Made by a program: the position numbers and the translations under genes
The notes under the pieces: model-generated
What the model was told of the DNA's origin: nothing
The model's database searches: none
The model's input: only the letters and a program-made list of their open reading frames with translations
Shown: positions 1 through 4,544 of the stretch, one piece after another
How the letters are laid out: each line of letters begins with the position of its first letter
How positions within the stretch are numbered: position 1 is the first letter of the stretch
Virus record (IMG/VR): IMGVR_UViG_2778261512_000017
Length of the DNA: 4,544 nt
Origin: a virus
Taxonomy: Duplodnaviria > Heunggongvirae > Uroviricota > Caudoviricetes
Reading direction: 5' to 3' (one strand)

Positions 1-198
1 ATACAAATTCAATCGAACTATTCCGGCAGATGCTACGACTACGGTCATGAATTCTCGTATGTTATCGGAATGGCGAGAGACGTTTTAATAAACCACACAC
101 GAGATGTTGATATTAATGAGCCAGACGGACCAACGAATCTTTCCGCATGGATGAGACTTAAGAATAAAGAATTGCCTCCTTCAGTACATAACTACTGA
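1..198 (+). CDS. 3' end (C-terminal 65 codons) of an upstream gene truncated by the window start; product unidentified
   Basis: Frame 1 is open from position 1 to a TGA at 196-198 (translation ...[24 protein letters not shown]). It is followed 18 nt later by a strong intrinsic terminator. In P22-like genomes the tailspike is preceded by late or immI-region genes, but I do not recognise this fragment. It is absent from the ORF track because it has no start codon in the window. Confidence 0.4.
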
Positions 199-215
199 CA
201 GATAACCAACGCAAC

Positions 216-241
216 GACCCAGCTTCGGCTGGGTTTTTTTA
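216..241 (+). terminator. Rho-independent terminator (6-bp GC-rich stem, TTCG tetraloop, T7 tract)
   Basis: CCCAGC (218-223), loop TTCG (224-227), GCTGGG (228-233), then TTTTTTT (234-240). It sits right after the upstream stop and 58 nt before the tailspike ATG. Confidence 0.75.
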
Positions 242-286
242 TGCCCAAAATTCACCGTAGCTACGCTGCGGCGATTCCTTGTATCT

Positions 287-290
287 GGAG
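287..290 (+). promoter_or_regulatory. Shine-Dalgarno (GGAG) for the tailspike gene
   Basis: GGAG lies 8 nt upstream of the ATG at 299-301. An in-frame TAA at 296-298 makes that ATG the only possible start. Confidence 0.55.
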
Positions 291-298
291 CAAATTAA

Positions 299-637
299 AT
301 GACAGACATTACAGCCAATGTTGTAGTAAGCATGCCTTCGCAACTCTTCACTATGGCGCGTTCTTTTAAAGCGGTTGCCAATGGCAAAATTTATATCGGT
401 AAAATTGACACTGATCCGGTAAATCCTGAAAACCAGATTCAGGTTTATGTGGAGAACGAAGACGGTTCTCACGTTCCTGTTTCGCAACCAATCATCATTA
501 ACGCTGCTGGATATCCGGTATATAACGGACAGATTGCCAAGTTCGTTACTGTGCAAGGCCATTCTATTGCTGTGTACGATGCATATGGATCACAGCAGTT
601 CTATTTCCCAAACGTGTTGAAGTATGATCCAGATCAG
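299..637 (+). other. Tailspike N-terminal head-binding (particle-attachment) domain, residues ~1-113
   Basis: High similarity, recalled from memory, to the P22/Sf6/HK620 tailspike N-terminal domain. It ends at the conserved YDPDQ hinge (residues ~109-113), after which the sequence diverges. Confidence 0.8.
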
Positions 638-2101
638 CTAAGACAGGAGTTGTCTGGTGATGATGGAGCCTCATTAATAGGTCTTTGTCCTGGTCACACT
701 GTTGCAGATTTGATTGGTGCAGGTATCAGCGACGGAGATGCAATGATACCTGTTATTCAACCTTATACCGGAGCAGTAAAAAGGACTCAGCATGAAAAAA
801 ATGCAGAGAATCTTACAGTTGCAGATTGGGGAGCTGTGAGCGATGTTGAATCATCAATCTCAGCTCAGAAGATGATTGACGATATAGGTATGCTGATTGT
901 TCCCGAAGGGTTTACTCTCGTTGCAAAAAATCTCAACCTTTCTTCAGCAAAAAAAGTGATTGTAAAGGGGAAGCTCAAATTACCGTCTGGATGTGTCGAC
1001 TTTGACAGATTACTTTACGCAGCAGGTAATAACTCTGGTCTAATAATTCACATTAATGAGATTGATGGTAATAAAGCAGGACAATCAGGACAGATTGGAA
1101 CCCATCTTGTCTATCTGACAGAGTGTCAGAACGTAGATTTTTACGCTCATTATGTCCATGACCATTACTACCCTCGCACTTTTATAAGTGCACCATCACC
1201 AGATGGAATCCGCAATGACGGCTCTGGTTGTCTGTTTTTCTATCAGTGCCATTACTCAAAGTTTATCGTTGATCGGATTGAATCGTGGGGGCATGAAGCG
1301 TTTTATATTTACAAAACTAATAGAAGTATTGCGGCACTAGGGCATGCACAAGGCGCTTCTGGTGATGACGCTTATTCTGGTATTCAATTTAGTGGTGATT
1401 ATAACCGTTTGCTTTATGCATCTGTGGATCTTGCATCAGCATCAGGCATTGGTTTTGATTGCCGCTGGAGCATGGCAGGAAAGTTGATATCTACCAACAC
1501 GCAATTTTTCCACGGTATTAACTTTGGACATGCTGGACTGCCAACAACAGGATCCACAATTGAGAGTGTTTATGTTAATACTTGCGAGCAAAACGGTATT
1601 AACTTTGCGGCAGGATCGGCAAATACCAGAGTTCTTTCAGCTTATATTAATGCTGCAGGAAAAAGTGGTGTTAACCAATCGGATGGTGCTACAGATAACA
1701 CCGTGAATAATGCCACTGTTGTTAATTCAGGTATTGCACAGGTTACCAGTTATCAAAATAATCTTGTCTTGACAAATTGCAATCTTACAACCGTAACAAG
1801 TGCACTCATTCCAAAGCTAAACCCAACTGGAGGAGGTACATTTACAATAAGAAACGTCCTTCTTTCTGCAACTGAAAAGATGGTGATGAAGTCATTCAAT
1901 GGATTGAGTGGTGTAGCTTCAGCAACACTGGTTGATGAAAATATAACACCTTATTCACAAGTTGTGATTCACCCAGCAAATGCTTCAGCTGCAGCAGCAA
2001 ATGCATATGTTTTAAGTCAATCAAACGGAAGTCTTGTCCTTGCTACGCAGTCAGGTTCTCCAGCTGCAGGCGGAGCAAGCTTCAGATATATGGTGATATA
2101 A
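299..2101 (+). CDS. Phage tailspike protein (P22-like podovirus type): conserved N-terminal head-binding domain plus a divergent receptor-binding domain
   Basis: 600-aa ORF. The N-terminus [88 protein letters not shown]...NVLKYDPDQ matches, from memory, the conserved particle-binding domain of P22-family tailspikes (P22 gp9, Sf6 gp14, HK620). Downstream is Gly/Asn/Ser/Thr-rich sequence typical of beta-helix receptor-binding domains. Unambiguous start, SD present, terminator directly after the TAA at 2099-2101. Confidence 0.93.
638..2098 (+). other. Tailspike receptor-binding domain (probably a polysaccharide-binding/processing beta-helix), residues ~114-600; specificity unknown
   Basis: The sequence after the YDPDQ hinge ([15 protein letters not shown]...) does not match the P22 or Sf6 receptor-binding domains as I recall them. 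The composition (G, N, S, T, V, I rich, Asn-rich C-terminal region) fits a beta-helix fold. No GDS(x) or DxxH SGNH motifs are present, so there is no sign of esterase chemistry. Confidence 0.6.
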
Positions 2102-2103
2102 AG

Positions 2104-2129
2104 AAAAAGCCTCTGAGTAGAGGCTTTTT
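2104..2129. terminator. Bidirectional rho-independent terminator shared by the convergent tailspike and acetyltransferase genes
   Basis: AAAAA-GCCTCT-(GAGT)-AGAGGC-TTTTT: a perfect 6-bp GC-rich stem (2109-2114 / 2119-2124) with a 4-nt loop, flanked by an A5 run 5' and a T5 run 3', so it works as a hairpin plus U-tract on either strand. It fills the 30-nt gap between the two stop codons (TAA 2099-2101 on +, TAG at 2132-2134 on -). Confidence 0.75.
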
Positions 2130-2131
2130 AA

Positions 2132-3973
2132 CTACTTTATCTTGCTAAAGATATATTCACCAACCTTAACTGACCATACCTTTGTAAGATGAGAGTTATC
2201 CGTGTAAACAGGCATATCTCCATCAACCACTCTACATTTGCCATCACTGCATATTGCTGGGCTAGGGTCAACGAAATGAACTTTTTGATATTGCTCAGCA
2301 AATATTTTAAATCTGCTATTCATTGCAGGCTCTATATAATCCTGAAACTCATTGCATTTTCTGAATAATTTATTAATAGGAAGGTCTTGTGATGCCAGGC
2401 ATTGATACATGATTTCCTTGCTTCCCTGGGTATCACCAACAATATATATCTGGCTGTTAGAGCCTTTAATATCATCAAGAAAATATTTCATTTCACTGAT
2501 GAAATCATTTTTATAAGAATTGTCAGTCGTTAGCGGGTTTCCAACCTTTCCAGTATACCACGCTTGCAACCATACGACTTTCTTGCCAGGATGGGCATTA
2601 ATGAATTCAACGGCCTTCTTATATCTTCCTTCGCAAATCTTTCTGAGTTTTTCAGAATAGTTTAGCGGCCCCATAAAATGCTTTGTAACTTTACAACCAT
2701 CCGCAGCTAGCGATGCTACTTTAAGACCGCTTTGTTTGAAGAAAGCGAAATAGTGTCTTGCATGGCTGTCACCAAGTATGATGTAGTCAAAGTCTTTTTC
2801 TGTAGCGTTGAAGTAGTCTACATTCTCTCCAGGCTGCATCCATAAATGTCCTTCGTAAGCCCGGCGGAACAGGTCTTTATTAAGATGGTAATCAGGATTC
2901 TTAATGCGACTACTTACCCCGTCGACATTGACATACAAAGCGGCTGCGAGACATACACAATAACAGAAAAGCAATCCCCATCCATAACCACGACGCTTCT
3001 CTACAAGGCTATAAAGTAGTGCTGAGGCTGACACTACACCAGCCAGATACCAGAAAATATTTAACTCAATTCCCGTCTTCTCGCAAAAGACGATTACCGG
3101 CCAGTGGATCAAGTATATTGAATAGGACCAGAGCCCAAGCTTTCCAATGATCTTACCAGAAAGAATGGTTCTTTTATTGTCAGCAAGAATGCAGATATAG
3201 GCCCCGAATACTGGAATAAACGCAATGTAGCCAGGCCACGCCAAGCTTTCGCTCATGAACGCGAGAGACAGCGCGATCAATATTAGCCCTGCTGATTCCA
3301 AAACTCGTCTTGATTTATCGCTACCTTTAAACGGGAACAGAAAAGCAATGCCTCCCAGCATCATTTCCCAACCTCTTGATGCGATGCTGAAGTATGATGA
3401 CACGGGATCAGTTCTGGTTATGTAAATGCACCATGCAAAAGAAACAACAGCAATCGCAACAACAAATATTTTAAGATTTTTTATTGACAATATCTTTGAC
3501 AGTGCAAGTAACACTATCGGGTAAATTATATAGAATTGCCATTCAACTGATAGCGACCATGTATGCAGTAAAAATTTTTGCTTTGATGTATCATCAAAAT
3601 AACCTGATTCAGACTGATAAATAATATTGGAAATAAATGTTAGACTTGCCGCAGAATGTTTTCCTATGATCTGTAATGTCATAGGCTCAAAGAACATATA
3701 ACCAATAATCAGTGTAAGGAATACAACTGCAACGAGAGCAGGAACTATACGTCTCGCCCTTGCTTTCAGGAAGTCAATAACCGAAAAAGAATTAGATTCT
3801 ATCCCTCTGAATATAATTGATGTCATCAAGTATCCAGATATGACGAAAAACACGTCTACACCAATAAATCCGCCTGGAATTATAGAAGATGAAAAATGAA
3901 ACAAAACAACACTTATAACAGCTATAGCTCTTAGGCCATTAATGTCATTTCTGAACTTTGTTGTAACTGTCAT
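2132..3973 (-). CDS. Two-domain membrane O-acetyltransferase (AT3 acyltransferase-3 domain fused to a C-terminal SGNH domain); OafA/Oac-like O-antigen acetylase, probable lysogenic-conversion factor
   Basis: 613-aa ORF with hallmark acyltransferase-3 motifs: R14 in NGLRAIAV, H26 in FHF, VDVFFVISGY (39-48), RRIVP (74-78), HTWSLSVEWQFY (137-148), and many hydrophobic helices through ~residue 350. The C-terminal region carries SGNH-type motifs GDSH (401-404) and DNSH (592-595, a DxxH pair). SD AGGA lies ~7 nt upstream of the ATG (plus coordinates 3980-3983). This is the architecture of Salmonella OafA/OafB-type O-antigen acetyltransferases, and the position beside a tailspike mirrors oac in Sf6. 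Confidence 0.92.
   Translation of the reverse strand: MTVTTKFRNDINGLRAIAVISVVLFHFSSSIIPGGFIGVDVFFVISGYLMTSIIFRGIESNSFSVIDFLKARARRIVPALVAVVFLTLIIGYMFFEPMTLQIIGKHSAASLTFISNIIYQSESGYFDDTSKQKFLLHTWSLSVEWQFYIIYPIVLLALSKILSIKNLKIFVVAIAVVSFAWCIYITRTDPVSSYFSIASRGWEMMLGGIAFLFPFKGSDKSRRVLESAGLILIALSLAFMSESLAWPGYIAFIPVFGAYICILADNKRTILSGKIIGKLGLWSYSIYLIHWPVIVFCEKTGIELNIFWYLAGVVSASALLYSLVEKRRGYGWGLLFCYCVCLAAALYVNVDGVSSRIKNPDYHLNKDLFRRAYEGHLWMQPGENVDYFNATEKDFDYIILGDSHARHYFAFFKQSGLKVASLAADGCKVTKHFMGPLNYSEKLRKICEGRYKKAVEFINAHPGKKVVWLQAWYTGKVGNPLTTDNSYKNDFISEMKYFLDDIKGSNSQIYIVGDTQGSKEIMYQCLASQDLPINKLFRKCNEFQDYIEPAMNSRFKIFAEQYQKVHFVDPSPAICSDGKCRVVDGDMPVYTDNSHLTKVWSVKVGEYIFSKIK
2135..2806 (-). other. SGNH (GDSL-like) domain, residues ~390-613, predicted periplasmic
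   Basis: Block I GDSH (S403, codon at plus 2765-2767) and C-terminal DNSH (D592/H595, plus ~2191-2200) match the SGNH catalytic Ser and Asp/His signature. The domain follows the last TM helix after a ~40-residue linker. Confidence 0.75.
2924..3973 (-). other. AT3 (acyltransferase family 3) integral-membrane domain, residues ~1-350
   Basis: Conserved AT3 motifs listed above plus multiple predicted transmembrane helices. The final hydrophobic segment GWGLLFCYCVCLAAALYVNV (331-350) is consistent with an extra helix that would place the C-terminal domain in the periplasm. Confidence 0.8.
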
Positions 3974-4110
3974 TTATAATCCTAAATTTAATGACTATAC
4001 CTTAGCCGTAATGATCACTGCAAAACAATGAGTTGAAGTGTATCACTACGCAGTAACTCGATCGACAGTAACGATTATGACAAATGTGCTAATCATGGCA
4101 CTTTCCTGAG
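3974..4110 (-). promoter_or_regulatory. Putative promoter/regulatory region of the acetyltransferase gene (exact promoter not resolved)
   Basis: Non-coding sequence directly upstream of the - strand ATG. On the - strand a TATAGT (plus 3994-3999) sits 18 nt downstream of a weak -35-like TTGCAG (plus 4018-4023), with a GATC (plus 4013-4016) inside the spacer. A second GATC (4060-4063) lies in the palindrome TCGATCGA, flanked by direct CAGTAAC repeats (4051-4057 and 4066-4072). The promoter assignment is tentative because the leader would be very short. Confidence 0.3.
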
Positions 4111-4544
4111 GATAGTCATAAATGGAATGTATGGATTGTTCAAATAATTAGCAAAAAATTATATCTCTAGGCATAAAGACGGTGATACGTCTTGTGTTGG
4201 AAATCTTAGTGACACGGGACAAAATGGGACGCACAAAGCTTTGCACTTGATTGCAAGGATTTGTGTCATTCGATAGTTAAGGTGGCTTACTCTACCTTCT
4301 CATCAATCCAGTCCGCCCACCACTGCATCATTTCTCTGCGCTTATCGTGGCAGATGCCTCACTATCACACGGTGATGGTTCATTACTGGTTTGCATAATG
4401 GATAGAGAACTGAGGATAAAAGATATCCCAAAACCCCAAAATCTCATCTTTAGGATTTGCAGAAAGGGAGGCGTGAACAAATACCTGCGCATGAAAACGG
4501 AACTAGTCCAGATGTGATGTTTGTGGTGATCACATACATCATTA

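What the first reader, a model, noticed from the sequence alone, without database searches (positions are those of the whole stretch)
2132..3973. Phage-borne AT3-SGNH fused O-acetyltransferase convergent to the tailspike: candidate serotype-conversion and superinfection-exclusion moron
The protein has every hallmark AT3 motif (R14, H26, VDVFFVISGY, RRIVP, HTWSLSVEWQFY) and a C-terminal SGNH domain (GDSH, DNSH). This is the two-domain architecture of OafA/OafB-type O-antigen acetyltransferases, not the short single-domain Oac of phage Sf6. It sits immediately downstream of, and convergent to, the tailspike, the canonical place for lysogenic-conversion genes in P22-like phages. The natural hypothesis is that it acetylates the O-antigen sugar that this tailspike recognises, so lysogens become refractory to the same phage. 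By eye the gene looks more AT-rich than the tailspike, but I could not compute this and membrane-protein codon bias could explain it.
Basis: partly seen in the sequence, partly recalled or inferred. Interest (0 to 1): 0.6.

Follow-up and report, generated by a model that had tools for sequence, protein, structure and literature searches.

The report
Prophage O-antigen acetyltransferase beside tailspike
This is an intact two-domain membrane acetyltransferase carried at the end of a P22-like E. coli prophage, back to back with the tailspike gene; it most likely acetylates the cell-surface sugar chain the phage uses as receptor, which is a well-known phage strategy, so it is an ordinary though uncharacterised member of a known family.

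Summary
ORF 2132-3973 (minus strand, 613 aa) has Pfam Acyl_transf_3 and the AT3-fused SGNH domain, both far above threshold. Every residue shown essential in Salmonella OafA has a conserved counterpart; the arginine is R15, not R14. An AlphaFold model (pLDDT 93.7) gives 11 membrane helices, a structured linker and an SGNH domain whose best solved match is OafB (6SE1). The gene is convergent to a P22-type tailspike across a 30-nt bidirectional terminator.

The claimed extra AT-richness is not real. Both genes share one low-GC island.

The kind is known. PHROGs lists it as "O-antigen acetylase". BTP1 GtrC/OafB has the same architecture and position and is experimentally sufficient for phage exclusion. 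The identical protein lies on more than 100 public E. coli contigs, always at a P22-like prophage end, at three chromosomal sites.

Extra findings:
- The 4-kb tailspike and acetyltransferase module moves between phage backbones.
- The same enzyme pairs with tailspike receptor domains only 57% identical.
- Related receptor domains pair instead with Gtr-type or AT3-only modifiers.
- One complete host genome is O136 (pseudaminic-acid O-antigen).

Substrate and exclusion phenotype remain inferred. Verdict: new member of a known kind, modest interest.

The parts
1..198 (+). 3' end of the antirepressor gene ant (P22AR C-terminal part). This is backbone, outside the module.
   Evidence: An open frame ends at 198. 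Matches in phages and E. coli prophages are annotated Ant / P22AR C-terminal domain.
216..245 (+). Terminator-like hairpin plus T-run after ant. The left edge of the mobile module (about 254-292) lies just beyond it.
   Evidence: 8-pair stem, 5 GC, T-tail. Module edges.
299..2101 (+). Tailspike gene, 600 aa. The P22 head-binding domain is aa 1-113 (nt 299-637). The parallel beta-helix receptor-binding part is about aa 170-600.
   Evidence: Pfam Head_binding E 1.7e-66. The AF2 model has a beta-helix core with pLDDT 80-98. Foldseek top hits are the Sf6, P22 and HK620 tailspikes. The receptor part has no close relative in 50,697 phage records but has 57-83% relatives in prophages.
2104..2129 (.). 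Bidirectional intrinsic terminator shared by the two convergent genes: an 11-bp stem with a GAGT loop, an A-run on one side and a T-run on the other.
   Evidence: dG -15.2 kcal/mol, z -4.55, 0 of 200 shuffles as stable. The sequence is identical in L024.
2132..3973 (-). AT3-SGNH acyltransferase gene, 613 aa plus stop codon.
   Evidence: Identical to database protein P0241.
2921..3973 (-). Codons 1-351: the AT3 membrane domain (10 TMH) plus the 11th helix. Carries R15, H26, GGFIGVD 34-40, FFVISG 42-47, R72/R75, S115 and E325.
   Evidence: Pfam. Hydropathy and positive-inside loops. AF2 helices. Invariant columns. Mapping to OafA mutagenesis data.
2789..2920 (-). Codons 352-395: structured periplasmic linker, the counterpart of the OafB SGNH extension. 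G352, R356 and G375 are invariant.
   Evidence: pLDDT 86-97 with short helices 360-373 and a strand at 386-388. Invariant columns. The 6SE1 alignment covers 239 columns of 261 residues.
2135..2788 (-). Codons 396-613: SGNH domain with catalytic S403 (GDSH) and D592/H595 (DNSH), plus six periplasmic cysteines (427, 447, 525, 540, 575, 580).
   Evidence: PF19040. Invariant or at least 90% conserved columns. Best solved-structure match is 6SE1, E 7.3e-6, TM 0.61. Cysteine list.
3980..3983 (-). AGGA ribosome-binding site, 6 nt upstream of the ATG.
   Evidence: Read from the sequence.
4074..4101 (-). Sigma-70-like promoter candidate: GTGCCA, 16-nt spacer, TG-CATAAT, about 100 nt upstream of the ATG.
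   Evidence: It is conserved in the variant modules, and in L022 the -10 element is TATAAT. This is a consensus match only and has not been shown to fire.
4278..4347 (-). Remnant of the last ~22 codons plus stop of an IntS-type integrase (...HDKRREMMQWWADWIDEKVE*). It forms the right edge of the mobile module.
   Evidence: Translation shows stop codons upstream of this stretch. In Tig228 and L024 the full intS gene follows here. Similarity to those loci ends at 4347.
4348..4544 (.). Backbone-specific non-coding DNA near the prophage end, of the dacD-site type.
   Evidence: Matches E212, EC.P3 and FORC_031-type prophages. L032 matches the window from 3 to 4544 at 99.1% and lies next to dacD.

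Best explanation
The gene encodes an inner-membrane O-acetyltransferase of the AT3-SGNH (OafA/OafB) type, carried as a lysogenic-conversion moron at the end of a P22-like E. coli prophage.

Proposed mechanism, by analogy with OafA/OafB:
1. The 10-helix AT3 domain takes an acetyl group from a cytoplasmic donor, probably acetyl-CoA. R15 and H26 on TMH1 and R72/R75 handle it.
2. The acetyl group is passed across the membrane.
3. An 11th helix places the SGNH domain in the periplasm. Its Ser403-Asp592-His595 triad transfers the acetyl group to a sugar of the surface polysaccharide, most likely the O-antigen repeat unit.
4. The acetylated glycan is a poorer substrate or ligand for the beta-helix tailspike encoded next door. 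Lysogens would then adsorb this phage and others using the same receptor less well, lose less O-antigen to free tailspike, and recapture fewer released progeny.

Shown here: domain identity, conservation of the catalytic residues, predicted topology and fold, exclusive prophage location, and linkage to the tailspike.

Inferred: the acetyl donor, the acceptor sugar, expression in the lysogen, and the exclusion phenotype.
For: Identity:
- Pfam AT3 and AT3-fused SGNH, both well above the gathering scores.
- phrog_6705 'O-antigen acetylase', category moron, E 1.4e-147, full length.

Catalytic residues. Counterparts of all OafA residues whose mutation abolishes activity (R14, H25, D39, R69, R72, S112, S412, H590) or lowers it (F35, E325, D587) (PMC7448272) are invariant or at least 90% conserved in a 72-75-sequence family alignment: R15, H26, F36, D40, R72, R75, S115, E325, S403, D592, H595.

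Topology and fold:
- 11 hydrophobic helices, with K/R-rich loops on alternate sides placing the N-terminus inside and the C-terminal domain outside.
- AF2 pLDDT 93.7, pTM 0.85.
- Six conserved cysteines, all in the periplasmic part.
- Best solved match is the OafB periplasmic domain 6SE1.

Context:
- Convergent to the tailspike with a shared terminator.
- The identical protein occurs in 10 of 10 sampled neighbourhoods at P22-like prophage ends, at three chromosomal sites, each with an intact tailspike.
- Homologues of 45-62% identity also lie in prophages or phages, mostly beside the tail spike or fibre gene.
- Relatives of this receptor domain are followed by a convergent AT3-SGNH, AT3-only or GtrB/GtrC-type gene.

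Precedent:
- GtrC(BTP1)/OafB has the same architecture and position. It is necessary and sufficient for protection against BTP1 and blocks tailspike cleavage of O-antigen (PMC4413052).
- It is highly expressed in lysogens (PMC7067206).
- phiV10 oac is convergent to the tail fibre gene and gives superinfection immunity.

The tailspike is a P22/Sf6/HK620-type beta-helix.
Against: - No biochemical or phenotypic data exist for this protein or any close relative. PAS61's 57% homologue is annotated but not discussed in its paper.
- The SGNH domain, which sets acceptor specificity in OafB, is not alignable to OafB by BLASTP and shares only 15% identity in the structural alignment. The acceptor therefore cannot be transferred by homology.
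- The same enzyme allele sits next to receptor domains 99%, 82% and 57% identical, so a one-to-one enzyme and tailspike specificity match is not demonstrated.
- A Proteus homologue lies away from any tailspike.
- The promoter is only a consensus match.
- The host O-type is known for one genome only.
Confidence: 0.72

Rival explanations
1. The enzyme has the same chemistry but acts on a different acceptor. It would acetylate a capsule (K antigen), colanic acid, enterobacterial common antigen or LPS core rather than the O-antigen, and the neighbouring tailspike would target that glycan.
For: P22-like E. coli tailspikes can target capsule; CUS-3, with an endosialidase tailspike, appears among the backbone matches. 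The SGNH domain is too divergent to infer the acceptor. The tailspike's best PHROG carries a 'colanic acid degradation' label.
Against: The colanic-acid label comes only from the shared head-binding domain; the receptor part alone does not hit that PHROG. The characterised enterobacterial AT3-SGNH enzymes (OafA, OafB) and the phage family phrog_6705 are O-antigen acetylases. Relatives of the receptor domain are paired with GtrB/GtrC-type genes, which are O-antigen glucosylation machinery (PMC7685785).
Confidence: 0.13
2. The enzyme does acetylate the O-antigen, but what is selected is host benefit: serotype conversion for immune evasion, or resistance to unrelated O-antigen-dependent phages. 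Exclusion of the carrier phage itself would be incidental or absent.
For: The enzyme is far more conserved (97.6-100%) than the adjacent receptor domain (57-99.6%). It is kept intact in a ~12-kb decayed prophage remnant in Tig228, which suggests value to the host independent of a functional phage.
Against: In that remnant the tailspike is kept intact as well. 9 of 10 sampled neighbourhoods keep the same receptor allele. In the BTP1, Sf6 and phiV10 precedents the modification blocks the carrier phage itself.
Confidence: 0.1
3. The enzyme is a peptidoglycan O-acetyltransferase (OatA-like) that protects the lysogen's wall from lysozymes or endolysins.
For: OatA shares the AT3-SGNH architecture. 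PatB, a peptidoglycan O-acetyltransferase, is the second-best structural hit (7TLV, E 1.3e-3).
Against: The best structural match is the LPS enzyme OafB. The AT3 half is 45% identical to OafB. It carries the GG-F/Y-xGV-D and S112-type residues of the O-antigen group. Gram-negative bacteria use PatA/PatB for this job (PMC12148441 abstract). The consistent tailspike linkage has no rationale under this reading.
Confidence: 0.03
4. The gene is a decaying passenger with no current function.
For: It lies beside an integrase remnant (4278-4347), and one carrier prophage is degraded.
Against: The ORF is intact, and the identical protein is present on more than 100 contigs and indexed in 211 blocks of the collection. 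Cluster variants differ by one or two substitutions. All catalytic residues are retained.
Confidence: 0.02

Closest known systems
GtrC(BTP1) / OafB of Salmonella (family II GtrC; periplasmic domain structure PDB 6SE1)
   Same: Two-domain AT3-SGNH protein (640 aa against 613 aa). Encoded in a P22-like (Lederbergvirus) prophage, convergent to the tailspike on the integrase side. AT3 halves are 45% identical. Same essential residues. 6SE1 is the best structural match for the SGNH half. Experimentally it acetylates O-antigen rhamnose, blocks tailspike cleavage and excludes BTP1 and P22.
   Different: The SGNH halves are not alignable by BLASTP and share 15% identity in the structural alignment, so the acceptor is presumably different. 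There is no gtrA upstream here. The host is E. coli rather than Salmonella.
OafA of Salmonella Typhimurium (abequose 2-O-acetyltransferase)
   Same: AT3-SGNH architecture. R-X10-H, GG-F/Y-xGV-D, RxxR, the S112-type serine, the E325-type glutamate and the Ser/Asp/His triad all have counterparts.
   Different: According to the review, oafA lies at a locus separate from the O-antigen gene cluster; whether that locus is a prophage was not checked here. No direct sequence comparison with OafA was run, and its acceptor, abequose, is not known in E. coli O-antigens (my own knowledge).
Oac of Shigella phage Sf6 and oac of E. coli O157 phage phiV10
   Same: Phage-borne O-antigen acetyltransferases next to the tail spike or fibre gene. 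phiV10 oac is convergent with a 12-nt gap. Sf6 oac lies between the tailspike and int. Both give immunity to superinfection.
   Different: Both are single-domain AT3-only proteins of about 330 aa with no SGNH domain. The window protein matches the AT3-only PHROG (phrog_3333) only over aa 8-327.
phrog_6705 'O-antigen acetylase', including Escherichia phage vB_EcoP_PAS61, Enterobacter phage Tyrion and Pseudomonas phage D3 orf28
   Same: Full-length profile match, E 1.4e-147. PAS61 is 56.7% and Tyrion 46% identical over the full length, both next to the tail spike or fibre gene.
   Different: Those phages have epsilon15-like (Uetakevirus) or D3-type backbones. None of these enzymes has been characterised in the searchable literature. 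Tyrion's SGNH half is only 29% identical although its AT3 half is 59% identical.

Membership tests
Acyltransferase-3 (AT3, PF01757) | Profile match above the curated threshold | tested here: met
   103.9 bits against a cut-off of 31, aa 9-319.
Acyltransferase-3 (AT3, PF01757) | R/K-X10-H in TMH1, the FFxISG motif and the RxxR motif (PMC7448272) | tested here: met
   R15/H26, F42-F43-V-I-S46-G47 and R72/R75 are all invariant in 72-75 homologues.
Acyltransferase-3 (AT3, PF01757) | Ten transmembrane helices | tested here: met
   Hydropathy analysis and AF2 helices between residues 9 and 325, pLDDT above 90. This is prediction only.
[quoted passage not shown] | C-terminal SGNH domain with a Ser (GDS) and Asp-x-x-His catalytic triad | tested here: met
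   PF19040, 93.2 bits against a cut-off of 27. S403 and H595 are invariant and D592 is at least 90% conserved.
[quoted passage not shown] | An 11th helix that places the SGNH domain in the periplasm | tested here: met
   Helix 332-351 follows the K/R-rich loop 325-331. The positive-inside pattern is consistent with N-in, C-out. Six conserved cysteines lie only in the C-terminal part. In silico only; no reporter-fusion mapping has been done.
[quoted passage not shown] | Residues specific to fused proteins: the GG-F/Y-xGV-D motif before TMH2, a Ser in the TMH3-4 loop, and a Glu after TMH10 | tested here: met
   G34-G35-F36-I-G38-V39-D40, S115 and E325.
[quoted passage not shown] | Structured linker (SGNH extension) packing on the SGNH domain | tested here: inconclusive
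   Residues 352-395 are modelled with pLDDT 86-97 and contain invariant G352, R356 and G375. The 6SE1 alignment spans 239 columns of 261 residues. Model coordinates could not be inspected for contacts.
[quoted passage not shown] | The additional helix (alpha8), found only in LPS-acting members | not tested
   This needs a residue-level structural alignment to 6SE1, which the tools did not provide.
[quoted passage not shown] | Demonstrated O-acetylation of an O-antigen sugar | not testable with these tools
   Requires LPS NMR or mass spectrometry after expression.
OafB / family II GtrC orthologue (rhamnose 2/3-O-acetyltransferase) | Orthologous SGNH (acceptor-specificity) domain and a gtrA-gtrC operon | tested here: not met
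   The SGNH halves give no BLASTP alignment (E 0.16) and 15% structural identity. The 300 nt upstream hold no ORF. It works like OafB but is not an OafB orthologue.
AT3-only phage Oac (Sf6 Oac, phiV10 Oac type) | Single-domain protein of about 330 aa without a periplasmic partner domain | tested here: not met
   613 aa with an SGNH domain. phiV10 oac is 338 aa.
Lysogenic-conversion moron of P22-like phages | Location between the tailspike gene and the int/att end of the prophage, transcribed against the late operon | tested here: met
   Window layout. 10 of 10 neighbourhoods of the identical protein show it. Same layout as BTP1 and Sf6.
Lysogenic-conversion moron of P22-like phages | Own promoter and terminator, and atypical composition | tested here: inconclusive
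   The terminator is strong. The promoter is a conserved consensus match only. Low GC is shared with the tailspike.
Lysogenic-conversion moron of P22-like phages | Expressed from the repressed prophage and changes the host surface | not testable with these tools
   Needs RNA-seq of a lysogen and LPS analysis. The BTP1 counterpart is expressed at more than 100 TPM in lysogens.
PHROG 6705 (O-antigen acetylase) | Full-length profile match | tested here: met
   E 1.4e-147, aa 3-611 on profile positions 4-640 of 647.

The most novel reading that the evidence does not exclude
The module is specific for the pseudaminic-acid-containing O136 O-antigen. The enzyme would add an O-acetyl group to that repeat unit, which I recall (not checked here) as unacetylated in the published O136 structure. 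That would create an undescribed prophage-determined O136 subtype. The two receptor-domain alleles found next to the same enzyme (57% identical) would then be a receptor-modification and escape pair, one allele reading the unmodified glycan and the other tolerating the acetylated one.
Probability: 0.12. Interest if true: 0.55.

Novelty: new member of a known kind. Interest (0 to 1): 0.3.

Why it matters
If confirmed, this would be the first characterised AT3-SGNH O-antigen acetyltransferase of an E. coli phage that I could find in the searchable literature, adding a prophage-determined variable to E. coli O-serotyping.

It also matters for phage therapy and phage-based diagnostics. A common prophage module could make otherwise matching strains refractory to phages that rely on the O-antigen.

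The module offers a tidy natural system for studying receptor-modification arms races: one enzyme, two tailspike alleles, three integration sites, and alternative modifiers on related tailspikes.

It does not open a new kind of biology. The mechanism and genetic logic are already established for Salmonella BTP1, Shigella Sf6 and E. coli phiV10.

Tried and rejected
- Sequence search of the PDB with the protein gave only spurious repeat matches to designed 'Cake' proteins. The OafB relationship appeared only through the fold search and through BTP1 GtrC.
- NCBIfam gave no usable equivalog. SucT scored 115 bits against a cut-off of 1275, and MdoC and SLATT were at noise level.
- The 'colanic acid degradation' label of the tailspike's best PHROG was rejected as evidence for the target. 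The receptor part alone does not hit that family.
- Dam/OxyR-type phase variation was considered because of two GATC sites upstream (4013, 4060). It was rejected because each site is lost in one close variant.
- Rfam and tRNA scans of the window found nothing.
- The extra AT-richness relative to the tailspike was rejected by direct computation.
- Strict co-inheritance of the enzyme with one tailspike allele was considered after the Tig228 match. It was rejected once L024, L030, L007 and L008 showed the same enzyme with a 57% receptor domain.
- The O136 lead could not be extended. Only 4 of 5,426 complete genomes have O136 wzy and only one carries the module. The roughly 200 draft assemblies that carry it could not be serotyped with these tools.
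- The tailspike receptor part has no useful relative among 50,697 phage records, so its specificity could not be inferred.
Full report
**1. What is in the sequence**

The window holds two long convergent ORFs: a 600-aa gene at 299-2101 (+) and the 613-aa gene of the finding at 2132-3973 (-).

- The 613-aa protein matches Pfam Acyl_transf_3 (aa 9-319, E 1.2e-29, 103.9 bits, cut-off 31). It also matches PF19040, 'SGNH domain (fused to AT3 domains)' (aa 394-601, E 2.8e-26, 93.2 bits, cut-off 27).
- The 600-aa protein carries the P22 tailspike head-binding domain (aa 1-113, E 1.7e-66).
The one exception is the arginine, which is R15, not R14.
- The two stop codons are 30 nt apart. The gap is a perfect hairpin flanked by an A-run and a T-run (AAAAAGCCTCT-GAGT-AGAGGCTTTTT). 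It has dG -15.2 kcal/mol and z -4.55, and none of 200 shuffles folds as well. This is a bidirectional terminator.
- Upstream of the acyltransferase lie an AGGA ribosome-binding site and a conserved sigma-70-like promoter candidate.
- About 300 nt upstream lie the last ~22 codons of an IntS-type integrase, with stop codons just before them. That makes it a remnant, not a gene.
- The left end of the window is the 3' end of ant plus its terminator.
- Rfam and tRNA scans found nothing.

**2. Composition**

It is not, in any meaningful sense.

| Gene(s) | GC | GC3 |
|---|---|---|
| Acyltransferase | 38.9% | 36.8% |
| Tailspike | 41.7% | 30.9% |
| Backbone phage genes in a related prophage | 48-51% | not summarised |
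| Host genes | 47-52% | not summarised |

The two genes together form one low-GC island.

**3. Is it a functional AT3-SGNH enzyme?**

A 72-75-sequence alignment of homologues (39-62% identical) shows these positions as invariant or at least 90% conserved: R15, H26, G35, F36, G38-V39-D40, F42-F43, S46-G47, R72, R75, S115, Y125, E325, G401, S403, D592, H595.

They correspond one-to-one to residues tested by mutagenesis in OafA (PMC7448272).

- Mutation abolishes activity at R14, H25, D39, R69, R72, S112, S412 and H590.
- Mutation lowers activity at F35, E325 and D587.

Further support:

- Hydropathy gives 11 membrane segments, with K/R-rich loops on alternate sides. The pattern fits N-terminus inside and C-terminal domain outside.
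- The six cysteines of the C-terminal part are conserved, as expected for a periplasmic domain.
- An AlphaFold2 model built on the alignment is confident (pLDDT 93.7, pTM 0.85). It shows 11 long helices up to residue 351, a structured linker and an alpha/beta domain.
[quoted passage not shown] The peptidoglycan enzyme PatB comes next.
- No solved AT3 domain was matched.

**4. Relation to characterised enzymes**

BTP1 GtrC (= OafB) is 640 aa and lies in a P22-like Salmonella prophage, convergent to the tailspike on the int side. Its SGNH half is the 6SE1 sequence.

The AT3 halves are 45% identical, but the SGNH halves cannot be aligned by BLASTP. The window enzyme therefore works like OafB but is not its orthologue, and the acceptor sugar cannot be transferred by homology.

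- PHROGs places it full-length in phrog_6705, 'O-antigen acetylase', category moron (E 1.4e-147).
- The closest phage relatives are PAS61 (56.7%) and Enterobacter phage Tyrion (46%). Each gene lies next to the tail spike or fibre gene.
- The PAS61 paper does not mention the gene.
- phiV10 oac and Sf6 oac occupy the same position but are AT3-only proteins.

**5.

The window protein is identical to database entry P0241. That entry is annotated only as 'acyltransferase family protein [Enterobacteriaceae]', is present on 104 contigs and is indexed in 211 blocks of the collection.

Ten sampled neighbourhoods all lie at the end of a P22-like prophage. They fall at three different chromosomal sites: argW/yfdC with IntS, bioA-ybhB, and dacD-sbmC. 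Each has an intact tailspike ORF in the convergent slot. L032 (dacD site) matches the window from 3 to 4544 at 99.1%, so the window is of that type.

Only 1 of 5,426 complete RefSeq E. coli genomes, Tig228, carries the module. There it sits in a ~12-kb decayed prophage that still keeps the tailspike, the acyltransferase and intS.

Seven more distant homologues (45-62%), from Morganella, Enterobacter, Citrobacter, Proteus and E. coli, are also in prophages. Six lie directly beside, or one gap away from, the tail spike or fibre gene, and one (Proteus) lies next to the terminase.

No phage-free context was seen.

**6. A mobile module, and how tightly enzyme and tailspike are linked**

Similarity between the window and the argW-type and bio-type prophages runs from about 254-292 to exactly 4347 at 99.4-99.6%. 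Against Tig228, 19 of 21 differences lie at the two edges. The 4-kb tailspike and acyltransferase block, with a scrap of int attached, has therefore been moved recently between P22-like backbones by recombination in flanking conserved sequence.

The enzyme is nevertheless not tied to one tailspike allele. The enzyme (97.6-100% identical) occurs with three receptor-domain variants.

| Receptor-domain identity to window | Loci |
|---|---|
| 99-99.8% | 9 of 10 P0241 sites, plus Tig228 |
| 82% | L022 |
| 57% | L024, L030, and the L007/L008 contigs |

Sources.

At DNA level, near-identity resumes inside the last ~170 nt of the tailspike gene. The swapped segment is therefore the central receptor-binding region.

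Conversely, receptor domains 83% and 71% identical, on a different N-terminal anchor (Tail_spike_N), are followed by other convergent genes. One has a GtrC-like plus GtrB-like pair, and the other has an unrelated 335-aa AT3-only gene.

So this family of receptor domains is regularly accompanied by a convergent glycan-modifying gene, but the chemistry varies. This supports the receptor-modification reading more strongly than position alone. It also qualifies the simple claim that the enzyme acetylates exactly what this tailspike reads.

**7. The tailspike**

The receptor part has no close relative in 50,697 phage records. Its model is a confident parallel beta-helix, and the best matches are the Sf6, P22 and HK620 tailspikes and capsule depolymerases.

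It belongs to the glycan-binding and depolymerising class, not the esterase class. Its specificity is unknown. A 'colanic acid' label on its best PHROG derives only from the shared N-terminal domain.

**8. Candidate substrate**

Tig228 has an O136-type wzx/wzy with pseBCFGI. The O136 O-antigen contains Pse5Ac7Ac (PMC7685785). Four complete genomes have this wzy and one of them has the module. The enzyme is therefore accessory to O136 synthesis.

This is a single observation. It yields a testable prediction, not a result.

**9. Mechanism and confidence**

The best-supported account runs as follows:

1. The AT3 domain takes an acetyl group from a cytoplasmic donor, probably acetyl-CoA, and moves it across the membrane.
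2. The periplasmic SGNH triad passes it to a sugar of the O-antigen.
3. The modified glycan resists binding or cleavage by the phage's tailspike. That limits superinfection, self-inflicted O-antigen trimming and re-adsorption of progeny.

All of this has been shown for GtrC(BTP1) (PMC4413052), which is also strongly expressed in lysogens (PMC7067206).

- Shown here: domain identity, residue conservation, predicted topology and fold, prophage location, and tailspike linkage.
- Inferred: donor, acceptor, expression and phenotype.
- Rivals: another surface glycan as acceptor, host benefit rather than self-exclusion, peptidoglycan acetylation, and decay. They are scored lower for the reasons given in their entries.

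**10. Verdict**

The feature is a new, uncharacterised member of a known kind. The protein is already in the databases under a generic name and belongs to a catalogued phage family with a well-studied Salmonella analogue. Interest is modest (0.3).

Three points add value: the modular behaviour of the tailspike and modifier cassette, the decoupling of enzyme and receptor-domain alleles, and the possible link to a pseudaminic-acid O-antigen.

Noticed in passing
window 4278-4347 (minus strand): Only the last ~22 codons and the stop of an IntS-type integrase survive here, with stop codons just upstream. The same point (4347) is the right-hand limit of similarity to prophages at two other chromosomal sites. 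The module therefore seems to have been imported from an argW/IntS-type phage into a backbone with a different integration system.
   Followed up: yes
window ~700-1930 against L024, L030, L007, L008: The central receptor-binding part of the tailspike is replaced by an allele only 50-65% identical at DNA level (57% aa). The flanking head-binding domain, the last ~170 nt of the tailspike, the terminator and the acyltransferase stay at 92-100%. This is a sharp recombinational swap inside the tailspike gene.
   Followed up: partly
L023 7874-10203; L025 7875-8882: Receptor domains 83% and 71% identical to the window's, fused to a Tail_spike_N anchor in siphovirus-like prophages, are followed by other convergent genes. 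L023 has a GtrC-like (Glucos_trans_II) plus GtrB-like pair. L025 has an unrelated 335-aa AT3-only acyltransferase. That gives three different modifiers for one receptor-domain family.
   Followed up: partly
L001 (Tig228) 13376-25160: The argW prophage is a ~12-kb remnant. It holds torI, eag, holin, lysozyme, two ejection proteins, arc, HNH, tailspike, acyltransferase and intS, and has no head or replication genes. The tailspike and acyltransferase are nonetheless intact.
   Followed up: partly
L021 1-9602 (Tig228 chromosome 1,880,000-1,889,601): The host O-antigen cluster is O136-type (wzx, wzy) with the pseudaminic-acid genes pseBCFGI. Only 4 of 5,426 complete E. coli genomes have this wzy.
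   Followed up: partly
window 299-2101 and 2132-3973: Both genes are low in GC (39-42%; tailspike GC3 31%) compared with 48-51% for neighbouring phage backbone genes. The whole cassette looks foreign to E. coli, not just the moron.
   Followed up: yes
L003 (phage Tyrion) 5001-6875: Tyrion's homologue is 59% identical in the AT3 half but only 29% in the SGNH half. The two domains diverge at very different rates or have been recombined, which fits the SGNH half setting acceptor specificity.
   Followed up: no
L017/L018 8001-9851 (Proteus mirabilis): A 46% homologue that is very common in Proteus (indexed in 199 blocks) lies between the RusA region and the small terminase subunit of an epsilon15/BPP-1-like prophage, not next to a tailspike.
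   Followed up: no
window 4013 and 4060: Two GATC sites lie between the candidate promoter and the start codon, reminiscent of Dam-dependent gtr phase variation. Each is lost in one close variant (L022, L007), so they are probably not regulatory.
   Followed up: yes
L001 19415-19924; L026 and L033 8266-8775: In the argW-type prophages an HNH endonuclease gene occupies the place of ant immediately upstream of the tailspike, at the left edge of the shared module.
   Followed up: no
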